64,000 nt of DNA from the NCBI GenBank assembly GCA_964497235.1, contig CAZCCJ010000009.1, forward strand, positions 2,701 to 66,700. Reading direction: 5' to 3'. The notes under the pieces are model-generated. The model ran no database searches and was not told the DNA's origin. It saw nothing but the letters and a program-made list of their open reading frames with translations. This stretch comes from an uncultured Staphylococcaceae bacterium. GTDB lineage: Bacteria; Bacillota_I; Bacilli_A; RFN20; CAG-826. Position numbers and translations under genes: made by a program. Each line of letters opens with the position of its first letter. The first letter of the stretch is position 1. Below, piece after piece: positions 2,764 to 23,708 of the stretch.

Positions 2764-2839
2764 TTGGAAAAATGGCAAAAATATCTAATTTTTTGTTGGA
2801 AAAATGGCAAAATTGCATTTTTTTCGCTTGGAAAAACGG
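2764..2839 (+). repeat. Three direct repeats with 32-bp period upstream of AAA ATPase
   Basis: ttggaaaaa(t/c)gg at 2764, 2796, 2828; the last copy lies in the -35 region of a TATAAT at 2849-2854. Confidence 0.85.
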
Positions 2840-2871
2840 ACATTAAGCTATAATATATGCAGTGGATAACT

Positions 2872-4224
2872 ATGTTATATAGAAAATTAAAAGAAAAGAT
2901 CAAAAATTGGATCAAAAACGGTACAAAACCAATGATGATCACTGGTGCAAGGCAGGTCGGCAAATCCTTCTTGATCAGAGAGACGCTCAAAGAGAGCGGC
3001 GTCGAGTATGTCGAATTAAATTTCATAAAAGACATATCGGCGAAGGAAATGTTCGAATCGTTGTTCAAAGATGGCCAAGCCTCTTTTAAATTGAAATTCA
3101 GCTTACTATGCAAACGAACGCTTCCGAAAGGCTCGATCGTTTTTCTTGATGAGGTGCAAGAAGTTAAGGAAGTGCTGACCGTTTTGAAATTTTTGGCCGA
3201 ACAAGGCGATTACCGTTATATTTTGAGCGGCTCGTTGCTGGGAGTGGAATTGACGAATTTGAGATCTGCTCCAGTTGGGTATTTGGAATCGTACGAGATG
3301 TATCCATTGGATCTCGAGGAGTTTTTCATCGCAAACGGCTTGACGAAAGAACTCATAGACTATTTAAAAGATAGATTCGAAAGTAAAGAGCCGGTCGACG
3401 AAACCATACACAAAACCCTGATGGATTCTTTCTATATGTATTTGGTCATCGGTGGCATGCCAGAAGCGGTGCAAACTTACGTCGACACACAAGACATGAA
3501 CAAAGTCATGAGCGTCCACAAAAACATAATCAACGAATACAAAAGGGATTTTACGAAATACGAGGAAAAATCCAAACTGAAGCTCATAAAAACTTACGAA
3601 CTTATTCCAAGCGAACTCGATTCAAAAAATAAAAGATATCAGCTGACAGATTTGGGCAAAAACACTAAGTTTGATAGATACGAGAATAGTTTCAATTGGC
3701 TTATAGATGCTGGAGTTGCCATACCGACTTATAACGTCACCGAATTTCAACTTCCGCTAGAGGCGAGTAAGAAAAGCAGCCTTTTTAAACTCTTTTTGTC
3801 CGACGTTGGACTATTGTCGTCGATGTACGGAAGGGCGACGATCGCCAAAATGCTGAATCGCGGAGAGAGTATAAATTGTGGTGCGATCTATGAGAATTTC
3901 ATCGCCCAAGAAATCAATGCTAGCGGCTTTAAGATGTACTATTTCAATAATAAAAAGCATGGCGAAGTCGATTTTCTTATAGAATACGATGAGAGCCTGC
4001 TTCCTATCGAAGTAAAATCCGGGAAGGACTACCAAGTCCATTCGGCGCTGACGTATTTCATGCAAACGCCATATTTTGATCGAGCCATAGTGTTCTCTAA
4101 TTACAATGTGTCAGTCAACGATAAAATCGTATACCTCCCGATTTATATGGCGATGTTTCTTAAGGACGTCTCGCCGATAGGAAAGATAGGCAAAATAGAT
4201 TTGTCTTCCTTAAAAATTCAGTGA
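2872..4224 (+). CDS. AAA_14-type ATPase with DUF4143 / PD-(D/E)xK-like C-terminus
   Basis: Walker A GARQVGKS, Walker B FLDEVQ, LSGS, IGGMPE, C-terminal EVDFL...PIEVKS. Start moved to ATG 2872 (MLYRK). Confidence 0.9.
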   Translation: MLYRKLKEKIKNWIKNGTKPMMITGARQVGKSFLIRETLKESGVEYVELNFIKDISAKEMFESLFKDGQASFKLKFSLLCKRTLPKGSIVFLDEVQEVKEVLTVLKFLAEQGDYRYILSGSLLGVELTNLRSAPVGYLESYEMYPLDLEEFFIANGLTKELIDYLKDRFESKEPVDETIHKTLMDSFYMYLVIGGMPEAVQTYVDTQDMNKVMSVHKNIINEYKRDFTKYEEKSKLKLIKTYELIPSELDSKNKRYQLTDLGKNTKFDRYENSFNWLIDAGVAIPTYNVTEFQLPLEASKKSSLFKLFLSDVGLLSSMYGRATIAKMLNRGESINCGAIYENFIAQEINASGFKMYYFNNKKHGEVDFLIEYDESLLPIEVKSGKDYQVHSALTYFMQTPYFDRAIVFSNYNVSVNDKIVYLPIYMAMFLKDVSPIGKIGKIDLSSLKIQ

Positions 4225-5637: not shown

Positions 5638-5697
5638 GGAAAAAAACTACAATAAACCACGGAAAAAAACTACATTGGATGGCGGAAAAAAACTACA
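5638..5697 (+). repeat. Three identical 14-mers with 23-bp period
   Basis: ggaaaaaaactaca at 5638, 5661, 5684. Confidence 0.9.
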
Positions 5698-5762
5698 TTT
5701 TGTCAAAAATAATGGAAGGCCTAAGTTTTTTCCAAAATGGTTTTTTGAAAGCAAAAAATACA

Positions 5763-5818
5763 AATAAAGTGTTACTAACTTAAAATTTTTTGAGATAGTA
5801 ACACATAATCGCCTTTTT
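5763..5818. repeat. 56-bp direct repeat, left copy, with internal palindrome
   Basis: aataaagtgttactaacttaaaattttttgagatagtaacacataatcgccttttt; contains gtgttacta-N18-tagtaacac; one mismatch to 7096-7151. Confidence 0.95.
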
Positions 5819-5845
5819 AATATATAATTATTGAGGGAGAATGAC

Positions 5846-7072
5846 ATGTACATCAAAAGAAAAAGATATCTAGAACGCATTAGACCTTATTATGAATCGA
5901 ACTTGATCAAAGTCTTGACTGGCATAAGAAGATGCGGGAAAAGCATTCTCTTAAATCAGATAAAAGATGAGATAGTCGCCACGAAAGAGATCCCTGATAC
6001 GCATGTTATCTACATAAATTTTGAGGATTTGGCTTTCTCGAATATACATTCTTACCAAAGACTCAATTCTTATATCTTGAAAAGGATACGTGATGAGCGG
6101 AAGTATTACATCTTTTTGGATGAGATTCAGCATATCAAGCAGTTTGAGAAAGTCCTATCATCTTTGAAAGCGACCCAGAATGTCTCGATTTTCGTCACTG
6201 GAAGCAATTCAAAACTCCTTTCCGGAAGATTGGCCAGTTTGCTTGTGGGACGGTGCAAAGAGTTTAAGATAATGCCTTTCACTTATTCCGAATTCGTGGA
6301 GTATCACGAAGAAAACCATCTTCAACTTCCGACGAAGCCTCTTCTGAATTACTTAAGATGCGGTGGAATGCCGCAGAGGTTGGATTACGACGATGAGGAA
6401 GACATCAAAGAATATCTGAAGTCCGTTTTTTATGGAATCATTGACAAGGATATTTGCGCACCGAGCTCAAGAATAAAAAAAGAAACATTCCTCACTTTGT
6501 CCAAATATATTATCGAAAACGTCGGAAAGGAATTCTCATCCGAGAATGTGGTTTCCTTCTATAACCATAACAACAAAGACGGCGACATATACAAAGAGAA
6601 TGTTTACCGCTGCTTGGAAAAGATGGAAGAAGCGTGCCTCATTTCGCGCGTCAAAAGATACGACGTGCCGTCAAAAAGGACGCTTAAAAAAATCGAAAAG
6701 CAGTATGCGATTGACAACGGTTTTGTTTTGGCTTGTTCGGACACCAACAAGGTCTTCGTCTCTCATATATTGGAAAATGTCATATATAACGAACTCATTT
6801 TTAGGGGATATGACGTAAAAATCGGGAAAACATATAAAGGCGAGATTGATTTCGTGGCGATGAAAAATGGCAAGAAATGCTTTATCCAAGTTGCGTATGT
6901 TTTATCCGATGAAACGGTTTTGGAAAGGGAGATGTCTTCTTTTGCATCATTAAAAGACCCTTCTCCGAAATACATAATGAGCCTTGATGATTTTGATATG
7001 TCTCGAGATGGCGTCATTCATTTGAACGCTGAGGATTTTTTGCTAGGAAAAGCGGATATTTCGATAAGCTGA
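5846..7072 (+). CDS. AAA_14/DUF4143 ATPase
   Basis: GIRRCGKS, FLDEIQ, VTGSNS, GGMP, LENVIYNEL, EIDFV...IQVAY. Start moved to ATG 5846. Confidence 0.9.
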   Translation: MYIKRKRYLERIRPYYESNLIKVLTGIRRCGKSILLNQIKDEIVATKEIPDTHVIYINFEDLAFSNIHSYQRLNSYILKRIRDERKYYIFLDEIQHIKQFEKVLSSLKATQNVSIFVTGSNSKLLSGRLASLLVGRCKEFKIMPFTYSEFVEYHEENHLQLPTKPLLNYLRCGGMPQRLDYDDEEDIKEYLKSVFYGIIDKDICAPSSRIKKETFLTLSKYIIENVGKEFSSENVVSFYNHNNKDGDIYKENVYRCLEKMEEACLISRVKRYDVPSKRTLKKIEKQYAIDNGFVLACSDTNKVFVSHILENVIYNELIFRGYDVKIGKTYKGEIDFVAMKNGKKCFIQVAYVLSDETVLEREMSSFASLKDPSPKYIMSLDDFDMSRDGVIHLNAEDFLLGKADISIS

Positions 7073-7095
7073 AGAATCGTTCTTAATTGAAGTTC

Positions 7096-7151
7096 AATAA
7101 AGTGTTACTAACTTAAAATTTTTCGAGATAGTAACACATAATCGCCTTTTT
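7096..7151. repeat. 56-bp direct repeat, right copy
   Basis: 55/56 identical to 5763-5818; begins 24 bp after the ATPase stop. Confidence 0.95.
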
Positions 7152-7226
7152 TTGTTTATATATCGGAATTTTCGTTCTACCTAATTAAATAAAAGATACA
7201 AAAATAAAAAAATGTTTCAAAAGTGC

Positions 7227-22250: not shown

Positions 22251-23480
22251 CTAAAAAAGCTTGCCATCTCGCATGAATTCCATGAGATTCTCGTTTTTTA
22301 TGCCGTCTTTTTTCTGTAACAAGAAGTCAGTGGTCAATAGATATTTTGGATAGTTGTCTTTGATAGAAAGAAGCGAGCGATACTCTCTTTCCATGGTGTT
22401 CGTATCCGATGCGATGGTGTAGGCCACTTGCACATAGGAATAGTCGAGATTTAAATCGCGGAGAACAAAGTCGCATTCCAATTTGCCTATTTTGCCGACA
22501 TAAGCTTCATATCCTTTCGATCTCGCGTAAATGTAGACGATATTTTCTAAGCACGGACCATAGGCGGAGATGTTATTTGGGTCAGTCAGGAAAGTGAATG
22601 AGAGGTCGGAGAGATAGTATTTCTTTTCGCCCCTCAGAGAGCGTTTTGATTTGAGATCGAAATTCTGGCATGGATAGATGATTTTGGCGTCCTCCAGCGC
22701 TTGGATGTATCTCATCAAGGTGGATTCCTTTATCTTGAGTCCTCCTTCTTCGAGCCCTTTTAGGATATTCCGTTTGCTTGTGGGTCTGGAAAAGTTGTTG
22801 ATCATGTAGCGCATGACGACATCAAAACTGTCGCATTTTCTTATTTTGATTCGACGATAAATGTCTTTCTTGAGTATTTCATCCGTAAGAGCCTTCACGT
22901 AGGTTCTTTTTGCGCCTAGGCTCGGAAGAAGGACTGTCTCCGGGAATCCCCCTTCCTGCAGGTAGTTTCTTAGCTCCGTGGCGAGATCAAGGCCGATTGG
23001 CATATGGTAAAATCCCTTCATTTGTAGGTATTCTTCGAAATTGAGGGGATAGACTTCGAATTCGATATAGCGACCTGTAAGCTTCGTCATAAGCTCGCCC
23101 GAGAGAAGATAGGAGTTGCTGCCAGTGAGAAAAATCGAGTAATCCCCTTCTTCGCGATAGGCATTGACGACTTCTTCATATCCCTTCACGTTTTGAATTT
23201 CGTCGAGGAAAAGATATTTCGTTCCTTTCACATTGGCTTTACTATCGATAAGGCGTTCCAATTGATCGGCGGTTTTGATATTACGCATCCCTTTTGCGTC
23301 TAAATTCAAAAAGCAAATATTGCTTTCTTTTACCCCTTTTTCTTGCAACTCATCAGCGATAAGACGCATGATTGAAGACTTGCCTGAGCGCCTGACGCCC
23401 GTGATTACTTTGATGAGATCGTTAATATGATAGAAATTGCGGATTTTCGAAAGATAGTTTTCACGTTTGAATAATAGCAT
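22251..23480 (-). CDS. AAA_14/DUF4143 ATPase
   Basis: Start moved to ATG 23480 (MLLFKRENY); GVRRSGKS, FLDEIQ, LTGSNS, GGFP, LENIV, ECDFV...VQVAY. Confidence 0.9.
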   Translation of the reverse strand: MLLFKRENYLSKIRNFYHINDLIKVITGVRRSGKSSIMRLIADELQEKGVKESNICFLNLDAKGMRNIKTADQLERLIDSKANVKGTKYLFLDEIQNVKGYEEVVNAYREEGDYSIFLTGSNSYLLSGELMTKLTGRYIEFEVYPLNFEEYLQMKGFYHMPIGLDLATELRNYLQEGGFPETVLLPSLGAKRTYVKALTDEILKKDIYRRIKIRKCDSFDVVMRYMINNFSRPTSKRNILKGLEEGGLKIKESTLMRYIQALEDAKIIYPCQNFDLKSKRSLRGEKKYYLSDLSFTFLTDPNNISAYGPCLENIVYIYARSKGYEAYVGKIGKLECDFVLRDLNLDYSYVQVAYTIASDTNTMEREYRSLLSIKDNYPKYLLTTDFLLQKKDGIKNENLMEFMRDGKLF

Positions 23481-23531
23481 AAATTGTTTTTCCTCGATTT
23501 TATTATAGTTGACTGCGTTGCTAAAAACAGG

Positions 23532-23581
23532 AGTTAAAGGGGGGTAATTTGATAAAAATGCGAAGTTGACCCCCTTTAACT
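23532..23581. repeat. Inverted repeat upstream of the AAA ATPase
   Basis: agttaaaggggggtaa-N18-ttgaccccctttaact (outer 12 bp perfect). Confidence 0.85.
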
Positions 23582-23708
23582 GGCATTTTTGTGCTGAATA
23601 GCAGATAGTCCTTCTCCTTAGTTTCCATAGCAGATTGCCCGTGCCCATCGTTGGCGATCGGACTGCCCACATAAAATGTTTGATGCGTCTATCTTTAGGC
23701 CGCCAGTG

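What the first reader, a model, noticed from the sequence alone, without database searches (positions are those of the whole stretch)
5763..7151. Single ATPase gene bracketed by a 56-bp palindromic direct repeat (cassette-like unit)
Seen: 5763-5818 and 7096-7151 are 55/56 identical and flank exactly one gene. Each contains gtgttacta-N18-tagtaacac, and the spacer can extend the hairpin (cttaaaa/ttttgag). Inference: this resembles a recombination-site-flanked cassette (attC/pdif-like logic) or a large target duplication. Recombination between the copies would release a 1333-bp circle and leave one site. No recombinase is encoded in the window.
Basis: partly seen in the sequence, partly recalled or inferred. 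Interest (0 to 1): 0.75.

Follow-up and report, generated by a model that had tools for sequence, protein, structure and literature searches.

The report
Palindrome-bracketed ATPase gene module
A candidate phage-defence ATPase gene sits between two copies of a 40-56 bp palindromic site; the same bracketed unit occurs in dozens of gut-bacterial species in unrelated neighbourhoods, and related genomes keep one palindrome where the gene is absent, so it behaves as a small gene cassette that encodes no recombinase.

Summary
5763-5818 and 7096-7151 are 55/56 identical, with a 36-nt near-perfect palindrome as core. They bracket one gene, 5846-7072, an AAA_14+DUF4143 ATPase that matches the PADLOC candidate PDC-S01.

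This is a family trait. In GTDB genomes, 62-75% identical homologues carry a related ~40-nt palindrome (P) centred 60 nt before the ATG and again right after the stop codon. Nucleotide homology between species (89-94%) begins and ends at the outer edges of the two P copies, and the flanks are unrelated. P was found only beside this gene or alone.

The upstream copy occupies the -35 position of the gene's promoter. Arm covariation is two-fold symmetric with no G·U excess, which points to a double-stranded DNA protein site and away from an RNA hairpin.

Best reading: a discrete, horizontally moved single-gene module. P is probably the operator of the encoded Orc1/Cdc6-like ATPase. Recombination between the two P copies removes the gene. 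Whether this is homologous or site-specific is unknown, and gain of the unit is inferred only. It is not an integron, pdif or IS200 member.

The parts
5763..5818 (+). Left (upstream) copy of the 56-nt direct repeat. It consists of AATAAA, the 36-nt palindrome P (5769-5804), and the tail ATAATCGCCTTTTT.
   Evidence: Homologous P copies are centred at -60.5 from the ATG in nearly all of 56 homologous loci.
5769..5804 (.). Palindromic core of the left copy. Its right arm occupies the -35 position of the ATPase promoter.
   Evidence: The P centre lies 36 nt before the -10 box, as in 24 of 54 homologous loci.
5823..5828 (+). -10 box TATAAT of the ATPase gene. It is followed by the RBS GAGGGAG (5834-5840).
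   Evidence: Read from the sequence. The position relative to P is conserved in the family. Consensus match only; not tested.
5846..7072 (+). AAA_14 + DUF4143 ATPase, 408 aa, PADLOC candidate defence family PDC-S01. Walker A and B motifs are intact. The PD-(D/E)XK-like C-terminal domain has Q-V-A in place of E-x-K.
7096..7151 (+). Right (downstream) copy of the 56-nt repeat (palindrome 7102-7137). It starts 23 nt after the stop codon here and directly after the stop codon in most homologues.
7138..7151 (+). Tail ATAATCGCCTTTTT of the right copy. In another strain, a 1.3-kb two-gene insertion sits here, bounded by ATCGCC(T/A)TTTTT.
   Evidence: L084/L089.

Best explanation
The 56-mer is this genome's version of a ~40-bp two-fold-symmetric DNA site (P). 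P brackets every member of one subfamily of PDC-S01/COG1373 ATPase genes.

Shown: P-promoter-gene-P is a discrete ~1.3-1.4-kb unit, found at 89-94% nucleotide identity in many species within unrelated flanks. Related genomes have exactly one P at the orthologous place. Decayed copies also exist.

Inferred: the upstream P overlaps the -35 region and is the operator of the gene, most likely bound as a dimer by the encoded Orc1/Cdc6-like AAA+ protein. Recombination between the two direct P copies deletes the gene plus one P (1333 bp here) and leaves a solo P. The unit is gained either by the reverse reaction at a solo P or by a still unknown insertion route.

The enzyme is not encoded in the unit. 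It could be host homologous recombination across the 45-56 identical bases, or a site-specific recombinase acting in trans.
For: The architecture is conserved. P is centred at -60.5 from the ATG and +21.5 after the last codon, and 41 of 56 loci carry both copies.

A locus's own downstream copy is the best match to its own upstream copy in 17 of 41 loci. Direct orientation fits better than inverted in 30 loci against 7.

Homology between loci starts at -70 to -100 in 358 of 419 pairs and ends at +30 to +70 in 246 of 378 pairs. Flanking ORFs are almost all unique to each locus.

A profile of P hits only these two positions in 1.4 Mb of held DNA. A GTDB-wide pattern scan gave 53 genuine P loci, at least 15 of them solo, several with gene remnants, and none bracketing other cargo.

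There are two clean empty/occupied pairs with both flanks homologous: L184 against L095 at 84-91%, and L190 against L109 at 91-95% over about 560-600 nt.

The symmetry covaries. The pair at distance 14 is TA in 30 and CG in 21 of 51 upstream copies with no exception, and G·T pairs (33) do not outnumber A·C pairs (42).

A -10 box averaging 5.4/6 matches lies 36 nt from the P centre in 24 of 54 loci, and 27 of 54 have an extended TG.

The protein is intact in all 54 copies examined, and its best structural matches are Cdc6/Orc1 bound to origin DNA. Other PDC-S01 subfamilies each carry their own repeats or palindrome at their own promoter.
Against: No circle junction, and no empty and occupied alleles within one species, were seen. 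All same-species contigs carry both copies, and an identical homologous protein recorded in 141 blocks of the contig collection (P0024; the 24 contigs read) always sits in one context. The unit is therefore stable on short time scales.

The sister species L003 shows a replacement, not a clean empty site.

No binding of the ATPase to P has been shown. Linkage alone would make P type and protein clade correlate.

In one clade the up and down copies differ consistently, so one protein would have to tolerate both variants.

How a P-gene-P unit reaches a site that has no P is unexplained, and no outer target duplication was found.

The structure model is mediocre (pLDDT 70.6; TM about 0.25-0.3 to the hits).
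Confidence: 0.55

Rival explanations
1. P is purely regulatory. It acts as operator and insulator upstream and as a transcript end or second operator downstream. The direct-repeat geometry has no role in mobility. The solo P sites are accidental RecA-dependent deletions. The unit spreads only through ordinary gene transfer with flanking homology or inside larger islands.
For: The spacing of the upstream P to the -10 box is fixed. Many upstream copies are flanked by an A-run and a T-run like bidirectional terminators. The unit is stable within species. Neighbours often include defence-island genes. Other subfamilies have upstream repeats only, with no downstream copy.
Against: Homology ends sharply at the outer edges of P on both sides, in hundreds of locus pairs with unrelated flanks. 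Transfer through flanking homology does not predict this. The upstream copy lies outside the gene's own transcript, and there is no G·U excess, so a shared RNA-terminator role is unlikely. The terminator scan finds nothing at either copy in the window. Within-locus identity of up to 56 nt exceeds what binding alone requires.
Confidence: 0.25
2. P is the attachment site of a site-specific recombinase encoded elsewhere, for example a large serine recombinase. The ATPase cassette is excised and integrated by that enzyme in trans.
For: P is about 40 bp, two-fold symmetric and AT-rich in the centre, which is the size and shape of serine-recombinase att sites. In L105 a 519-aa large serine recombinase gene starts 630 nt to the right of the downstream P. 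A truncated copy lies beside the solo P of L222. A conserved 170-250-nt right flank adjoins P in at least 12 loci, and a tmRNA gene lies 0.2-1 kb away in three loci. Some downstream and solo copies have arms of two different P types, as a central crossover would give.
Against: A serine recombinase was found in only 2 of more than 130 P-bearing loci. No recombinase family recurs among 86 neighbouring ORFs, and none was seen in the window. Large serine recombinases normally pair unlike attP and attB sites, not two like sites. Most P copies are internally self-consistent palindromes, not hybrids.
Confidence: 0.1
3. The unit is a non-autonomous hairpin-ended transposon of the IS200/IS605 (PATE) kind. 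A Y1 HUH transposase elsewhere in the genome moves it as single-stranded DNA.
For: Similar palindromes in direct orientation lie near both ends of a single-gene unit. There is no outer target duplication, and the flanks are unrelated.
Against: IS200/IS605 excision restores the target without leaving a hairpin, yet solo P copies remain at orthologous empty sites. The palindrome is long and nearly perfect. No conserved target tetranucleotide is visible at the left junction. No strand bias was seen in the mismatches. No TnpA appeared among neighbours or in the window. The upstream hairpin doubles as promoter DNA.
Confidence: 0.04
4. The repeat is a long target-site duplication. The gene inserts at a resident P after staggered cuts at both edges of P, and repair duplicates P.
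For: Empty sites hold exactly one P and occupied sites hold two. In many loci the two copies are nearly identical. The protein carries a nuclease-like domain.
Against: The duplicated length varies from 44 to 56 nt. In one clade (L094, L096, L100, L105, L107, L110, L111, L131) the upstream type and a different downstream type travel together into different flanks. The nuclease motif E-x-K is replaced by Q-V-A throughout the subfamily.
Confidence: 0.05

Closest known systems
PDC-S01 (PADLOC phage-defence candidate; COG1373, AAA_14 + DUF4143 ATPases)
   Same: The gene matches PDC-S01 model PDLC04787 at E 1e-124 and Pfam AAA_14 + DUF4143. The literature describes PDC-S01 as an ATPase fused to a PD-(D/E)XK domain, among the commonest candidate systems, with validation pending (PMC12988326; PMC13356809). 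COG1373 is also listed among genes shared between gut genera (PMC10782964).
   Different: None of the papers found mentions flanking palindromes, solo sites or a cassette-like unit. This subfamily has Q-V-A in place of the E-x-K nuclease motif.
Integron gene cassettes (ORF + attC, IntI)
   Same: A single gene is associated with an imperfect palindromic site. Loss of the gene leaves one site. The unit itself carries no recombinase.
   Different: A full site lies on both sides, not only at the 3' end. The unit has its own promoter. There is one cargo family only. No GTTRRRY core, no IntI or attI, and no array of varied cassettes were seen.
pdif modules / IMEX elements that use XerCD at dif
   Same: These are recombinase-less modules bracketed by copies of a short, partly palindromic site that are recombined by a host enzyme. 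Excision leaves one site.
   Different: dif and pdif sites are 28 bp (11-6-11), and pdif modules have them in inverted C/D-D/C orientation. P is 36-41 bp with arms about 13 nt from the centre and is in direct orientation. P occurs in many chromosomal contexts, not at a terminus. An Acinetobacter plasmid homologue (31% identity) has an upstream palindrome, but no matching copy downstream of the gene (28-bp pdif sites were not searched for explicitly).
Archaeal Orc1/Cdc6 with origin recognition boxes
   Same: The best structural matches of the predicted protein are Cdc6/Orc1 bound to origin DNA (2qby_A, 2v1u_A). Inverted recognition boxes around an AT-rich centre lie next to the protein's own gene.
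   Different: The organism is a bacterium. The TM-score is low (about 0.25). The protein has an extra PD-(D/E)XK-like domain. There is no evidence for replication, and the site also occurs after the gene.
IS200/IS605 elements and REP/RAYT units
   Same: A single gene is flanked by similar palindromic hairpins, and there is no terminal inverted-repeat transposase signature.
   Different: The gene is not an HUH transposase. Solo P copies are left at empty sites. P is not dispersed in high copy number: there are none elsewhere in the 64-kb window and none in about 0.7 Mb of unrelated loci.

Membership tests
PDC-S01 / COG1373 (AAA_14 + DUF4143) | Sequence match to the family profile over the full length | tested here: met
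   PADLOC PDLC04787 at E 1e-124, residues 2-402. Pfam AAA_14 at 5.9e-33 and DUF4143 at 3.1e-11.
PDC-S01 / COG1373 (AAA_14 + DUF4143) | Canonical PD-(D/E)XK catalytic motif (D ... E-x-K) in the C-terminal domain | tested here: not met
   The subfamily conserves E..EIDF..IQVAY, with Q-V-A in place of E-x-K. The window paralogue at 2857-4224 has the canonical EVDF..IEVK.
PDC-S01 / COG1373 (AAA_14 + DUF4143) | Protection against phage | not testable with these tools
   The literature states that validation is pending (PMC12988326).
Integron cassette / attC | attC only at the 3' end of a promoterless ORF, with the conserved core GTTRRRY | tested here: not met
   A full site lies on both sides and the unit has its own -10 box and RBS. 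The arms read GTGTTAC/GTGTCAC and contain no GTTRRRY.
Integron cassette / attC | IntI integrase, attI and an array of different cassettes nearby | tested here: not met
   No integrase family was found in the window census or among 86 neighbour ORFs. P never brackets other cargo.
pdif module / dif (XerCD) | 28-bp site with 11-bp XerC and XerD arms and a 6-bp spacer | tested here: not met
   P is 36-41 bp. Its conserved arms lie at positions 9-20 from the centre, around an AT-rich middle. Compared by eye with the B. subtilis and E. coli dif consensus recalled from memory.
pdif module / dif (XerCD) | Module bounded by sites in inverted (C/D ... D/C) orientation | tested here: not met
   The two 56-mers are direct, with asymmetric flanks AATAAA and ATAATCGCCTTTTT. 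Direct orientation fits better than inverted in 30 loci against 7.
IS200/IS605 (PATE) | Similar subterminal hairpins at both ends, with no target duplication | tested here: met
IS200/IS605 (PATE) | Precise excision that restores the target without a hairpin, and insertion 3' of a fixed tetra- or pentanucleotide | tested here: not met
   Empty orthologous sites retain one P. No conserved left-flank motif is visible.
IS200/IS605 (PATE) | A Y1 HUH transposase in the same genome | tested here: inconclusive
   None in the window or among neighbours. Whole genomes were not available.
REP/RAYT | Palindrome dispersed in many extragenic copies, with the flanked gene encoding a RAYT | tested here: not met
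   No further copy in 64 kb. Hits occur only beside the ATPase gene, or alone at low number. The gene is an AAA+ ATPase.
Large serine recombinase att site | About 40-50-bp imperfect palindrome around a central crossover, next to the recombinase gene at an element end | tested here: inconclusive
   The size and symmetry fit. A recombinase lies beside P only in L105/L159, with a truncated copy in L222.

The most novel reading that the evidence does not exclude
The P-bracketed gene is an autonomous selfish element of a new kind. In this reading the Orc1/Cdc6-like AAA+ protein, with its degenerate nuclease-like domain, binds P and itself drives excision of a P-gene circle and its integration at solo P sites (or maintains the circle, with P as an origin-like site). 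At least part of the very abundant 'PDC-S01 defence candidates' would then be mobile or addictive elements, not immunity genes, or both at once.
Probability: 0.1. Interest if true: 0.9.

Novelty: new variant of a known kind. Interest (0 to 1): 0.66.

Why it matters
PDC-S01 is reported as one of the most frequent candidate defence loci in bacteria, archaea and rumen genomes, yet it has no tested function (PMC12988326, PMC13356809).

This analysis supplies three things that were missing for one subfamily:
- a defined candidate DNA ligand, the ~40-bp site P;
- a defined unit with nucleotide-level ends;
- natural empty sites.

Binding, regulation, excision and phage-protection experiments can therefore be designed directly.

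If the P-P reaction turns out to be site-specific, this is a cassette system that carries no recombinase of its own. That would help explain how single defence genes move between gut Bacilli and mollicute-like lineages without a recognisable mobile element.

The side observation that each PDC-S01 subfamily has its own repeats at its own promoter suggests that the whole family consists of sequence-specific DNA binders.

Tried and rejected
- An exact search for the window's own 36-mer in GTDB genomes gave 0 hits.
- A search for window-type P in JGI metagenomes gave 1 hit, an unrelated repeat with no ATPase nearby.
- Rfam found nothing at or near the repeats in the window or in related loci, only tmRNA genes nearby in three loci.
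- A PDB sequence search gave no significant match.
- The terminator scan found no intrinsic terminator at either copy.
- Sister species L003 was examined as an empty site. It is a replacement: 428 nt of unrelated filler stand in place of window 5704-7190, so it is not informative.
- I looked for strain-level presence/absence through exact flanking proteins. All contigs carry the unit.
- I looked for one identical homologue in several contexts. P0024 is always between guaA and an HxlR-family gene.
- A search for outer target duplications around P-gene-P found none in general. Only L231 and L115 share a TGCTACCATTTTGMTACCA motif on both sides.
- No recurrent recombinase was found among neighbours.
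- A serine recombinase was found in only 2 loci.
- No close relatives (all below 60% identity) are carried in the phage or plasmid collections. The Acinetobacter plasmid homologue has an upstream palindrome, but no matching copy downstream of the gene (pdif sites were not searched for explicitly).
- The RNA-hairpin reading was rejected, because the upstream copy lies before the -10 box and G·T pairs do not exceed A·C pairs.

Full report
**Observation.** The window holds two direct copies of a 56-nt sequence, at 5763-5818 and 7096-7151. They are 55/56 identical and start 1333 nt apart. The core is a 36-nt palindrome, GTGTTACTAACTTAAAATTTTTTGAGATAGTAACAC, with 9-nt outer arms. The core and the arm pattern occur nowhere else in the 64 kb, and no shuffle reproduced them.

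One gene lies between the copies. Alignment with homologues places its start at the ATG at 5846, preceded by TATAAT (5823-5828) and GAGGGAG. Independent assemblies of the same species all carry both copies, with the same T/C difference between left and right. An assembly artefact is therefore excluded, and the duplication predates these strains.

**The gene.** It is an AAA_14 + DUF4143 ATPase. It matches the PADLOC candidate defence family PDC-S01 at E 1e-124. The window holds three more genes of this kind: 2857-4224, a frameshifted one on the minus strand at about 9352-10560, and 22272-23480 on the minus strand.

Published surveys call PDC-S01 one of the commonest candidate systems, an ATPase fused to a PD-(D/E)XK domain, with experimental validation pending. 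A predicted structure (pLDDT 70.6) finds archaeal Cdc6/Orc1 bound to origin DNA, ORC, clamp loaders and DnaA as best matches. Global superposition is poor, so this is a lead only.

In this subfamily the Walker motifs are intact and all 54 copies examined are open. The E-x-K of the nuclease motif is replaced throughout by Q-V-A, whereas the paralogue at 2857-4224 keeps the canonical motif.

**A family-wide architecture.** A scan of GTDB species representatives returned 66 loci with homologues of 62-75% identity. They come from gut Bacilli, Anaeroplasmataceae, Acholeplasmatales and similar metagenome-assembled genomes. In nearly all of them a palindrome of the form GTGTYAYAAAtt-N13-aaTTTRTRACAC (P) is centred 60.5 nt before the ATG. 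In about 40 loci a second copy is centred 21.5 nt after the last codon, so that the stop codon abuts it. Forty-one of 56 loci pass a strict test for both copies.

A locus's own downstream copy is the best match to its own upstream copy in 17 of these 41 loci, where about one would be expected by chance. Direct orientation fits better than inverted in 30 loci against 7. The window's nearest relative outside its own species (77% identity, L241) sits beside rplK-rplA with window-type P on both sides.

**A discrete unit.** Units from different species are 89-94% identical in nucleotides, while their flanks share nothing. Among pairs at 80% identity or more, homology begins 70-100 nt before the ATG in 358 of 419 pairs. 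It ends 30-70 nt after the last codon in 246 of 378 pairs. These positions are the outer edge of the upstream P and the end of the downstream P plus a short T-rich tail. Flanking ORFs are almost all unique to each locus.

Neighbours are a mix of housekeeping genes and defence-type genes. Other DUF4143 ATPases are the most frequent neighbour (12 of 86), and no recombinase recurs.

**Where P occurs.** A profile of P, searched over 1.4 Mb of held DNA, hits only the two positions beside this gene. About 0.7 Mb of that DNA consists of loci fetched for an unrelated neighbour gene. A degenerate P pattern scanned over all GTDB genomes gave 75 stretches, 53 of them genuine by the profile. About 30 of the genuine ones carry the gene. 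Several are decayed units with only 5' or 3' gene remnants (L170, L171, L177, L179, L197, L214). At least 15 are solo copies with no such gene in the 8-kb locus. No pair of P copies brackets any other cargo.

**Empty sites.** Two pairs are clean. L184 has left flank, one P, right flank. L095 (with L153 and L103) has the homologous left flank, P, the gene, P, and the homologous right flank. Flank identity is 84-93%. L190 has one P between flanks that are 95.5% and 90.8% identical, over about 600 and 560 nt, to the flanks of the occupied L109. In L190 the solo P has the centre of the upstream copy and the tail of the downstream copy. Any crossover therefore lies within about 30 shared bases.

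L177 is the orthologous locus of L152 with the gene internally deleted. They are between species, not within one population.

**What kind of site P is.** The two arms covary symmetrically. At distance 14 from the centre, 30 upstream copies have T-A and 21 have C-G, with no exception. At distance 9 the counts are 39 A-T and 11 T-A with one exception. G·T pairs (33 upstream, 29 downstream) do not outnumber A·C pairs (42 and 20). A hairpin in sense-strand RNA would predict such an excess.

The upstream copy lies before the -10 box. A -10 match averaging 5.4/6 sits 36 nt from the P centre in 24 of 54 loci, with a second mode at 26 nt. Half of the loci have an extended TG. The right arm of P thus occupies the -35 position, and the upstream copy is not part of the gene's own transcript.

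A function shared by both copies is therefore more likely at the DNA level. The candidates are a two-fold-symmetric protein site or a cruciform. At about 40 bp, P is large for a simple helix-turn-helix dimer. It is plausible for a dimer whose subunits each use two DNA-contacting domains, or for a recombinase site.

**Cognate repeats in other subfamilies.** Other PDC-S01 subfamilies each carry their own sequence just upstream of their own promoter, either two to five tandem repeats with a 23-33-nt period or a palindrome:
- GGAAAAATGGCAAAA x3 before 2857;
- TTCCTATTTATTTTT x3 before the pseudogene;
- GTTAAAGGGGGT-N23-ACCCCCCTTTAAC before the gene at 23480;
- different motifs in L003, L005, L012, L132 and L147;
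- a 64-nt palindrome before an Acinetobacter plasmid homologue.

This supports the idea that these ATPases bind specific DNA at their own genes. The evidence is by analogy only.

**Most likely mechanism.**
- Shown: a discrete P-promoter-gene-P unit in many contexts; solo P at orthologous sites; decay products; two-fold covariation; fixed promoter geometry.
- Inferred: P is the operator of the gene, probably bound by its own product. The two direct copies recombine and delete the gene plus one P (1333 bp in the window). The unit is gained by the reverse reaction or by an unknown route.
- Not decided: the enzyme. Homologous recombination over 45-56 identical bases would suffice for loss.

A site-specific enzyme acting in trans is possible. 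In one lineage a 519-aa large serine recombinase gene lies 630 nt to the right of the downstream P. A truncated copy lies beside a solo P, and a conserved right flank adjoins P in at least 12 loci, near tmRNA in three. This is not general, however.

A long target duplication is disfavoured, because one clade carries a consistent upstream type and a different downstream type into different flanks. An IS200/IS605-like mechanism is disfavoured, because empty sites keep a P.

**Comparison with known systems.** The gene is a member of PDC-S01 by sequence. The bracketing works like a cassette bounded by recombination sites, as in integron cassettes, pdif modules and IMEX elements. It fails their defining features:
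- it has a full site on both sides and its own promoter;
- it carries one cargo only;
- it has no GTTRRRY core and no 11-6-11 dif layout;
- its sites are in direct orientation;
- it has no IntI.

The literature searches found no description of flanking palindromes for DUF4143, COG1373 or PDC-S01. That library is incomplete, so prior description cannot be excluded.

**Limits.** Most comparison genomes are metagenome bins with unreliable names. Empty and occupied alleles were found between species only. Within species the unit is stable. Protein binding, excision and integration are untested. The window census for recombinases shows only the 25 best-scoring of 35 families.

Noticed in passing
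window 5638-5706: There are three tandem 23-nt repeats (GGAAAAAAACTACA + 9 variable nt) 56 nt to the left of the left 56-mer. They are conserved in sister species L003, which lacks the ATPase gene, so they are not part of the unit. They resemble the upstream repeat arrays of other DUF4143 genes.
   Followed up: partly
window 2765-2845: GGAAAAATGGCAAAA occurs three times with a period of about 32 nt, directly upstream of the -10 box of the paralogous ATPase 2857-4224. The same array is present in L003. Other PDC-S01 subfamilies in held loci each have their own 2-5 tandem repeats in this position.
   Followed up: partly
window 9352-10640 (minus strand): This is a frameshifted DUF4143 ATPase pseudogene. 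The AAA part is readable around 10560-10040, and an ORF of 226 aa remains. TTCCTATTTATTTTT x3 lies upstream at about 10580-10640. In strain L084 the ORF is split further.
   Followed up: no
window 22272-23600 (minus strand): This is a fourth paralogue (33% identity to the bracketed gene). It has its own upstream palindrome, GTTAAAGGGGGT-N23-ACCCCCCTTTAAC, before TATAAT, and no copy downstream.
   Followed up: partly
L084 4513-5840 (= L089), corresponding to window 7138-7160: In another strain of the same species, a 1.3-kb insertion lies directly after the right palindrome. It carries two unannotated genes (222 aa, and a 116-aa membrane protein). It is bounded by the imperfect 12-13-nt direct repeat ATCGCC(T/A)TTTTT, which is the tail of the 56-mer. 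There are no Pfam, NCBIfam or PADLOC hits.
   Followed up: partly
L003 7189-7512: In the sister species, about 27 nt of the 3' end of the glycoside hydrolase gene are duplicated around a ~296-nt insert. The insert contains three CTGACCCATATT repeats.
   Followed up: no
L105 3185-5377 (= L159); L222 3632-4757: A conserved 170-250-nt sequence adjoins the downstream or solo palindrome in at least 12 loci. In L105 it leads into a 77-aa ORF and a 519-aa large serine recombinase. L222 has a truncated copy. tmRNA genes lie 0.2-1 kb from the palindrome in L100, L197 and L222.
   Followed up: partly
L184 3320-3407, 5114-5201, 6997-7084: An 88-nt repeat occurs three times at about 1.8-1.9-kb spacing, between XRE/HipA-like gene pairs, to the right of a solo palindrome. 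An IS66-family element lies to the left. It looks like a second kind of repeat-punctuated gene array.
   Followed up: no
L231 about 3887 and 5385; L115 about 2888 and 4308: The motif TGCTACCATTTTGMTACCA lies on both sides of the whole P-gene-P unit in two different species (about 113 nt before the ATG, and 87 or 161 nt after the gene).
   Followed up: no
L243 2422-2485 (Acinetobacter baumannii plasmid NZ_CP098792.1): A 31%-identical homologue, present on 175 Acinetobacter plasmids and sitting next to BREX-type genes, has a 64-nt palindrome (25-nt arms) directly before its start codon. No matching copy lies downstream of the gene; pdif sites were not searched for explicitly.
   Followed up: partly
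L160 3910-3946 and 4013-4055; L189 2925-2965, 3061-3102, 4370-4410: Two palindromes of different subtype lie about 100 nt apart with no gene between them (L160). In L189 an extra palindrome precedes a complete P-gene-P unit.
   Followed up: no
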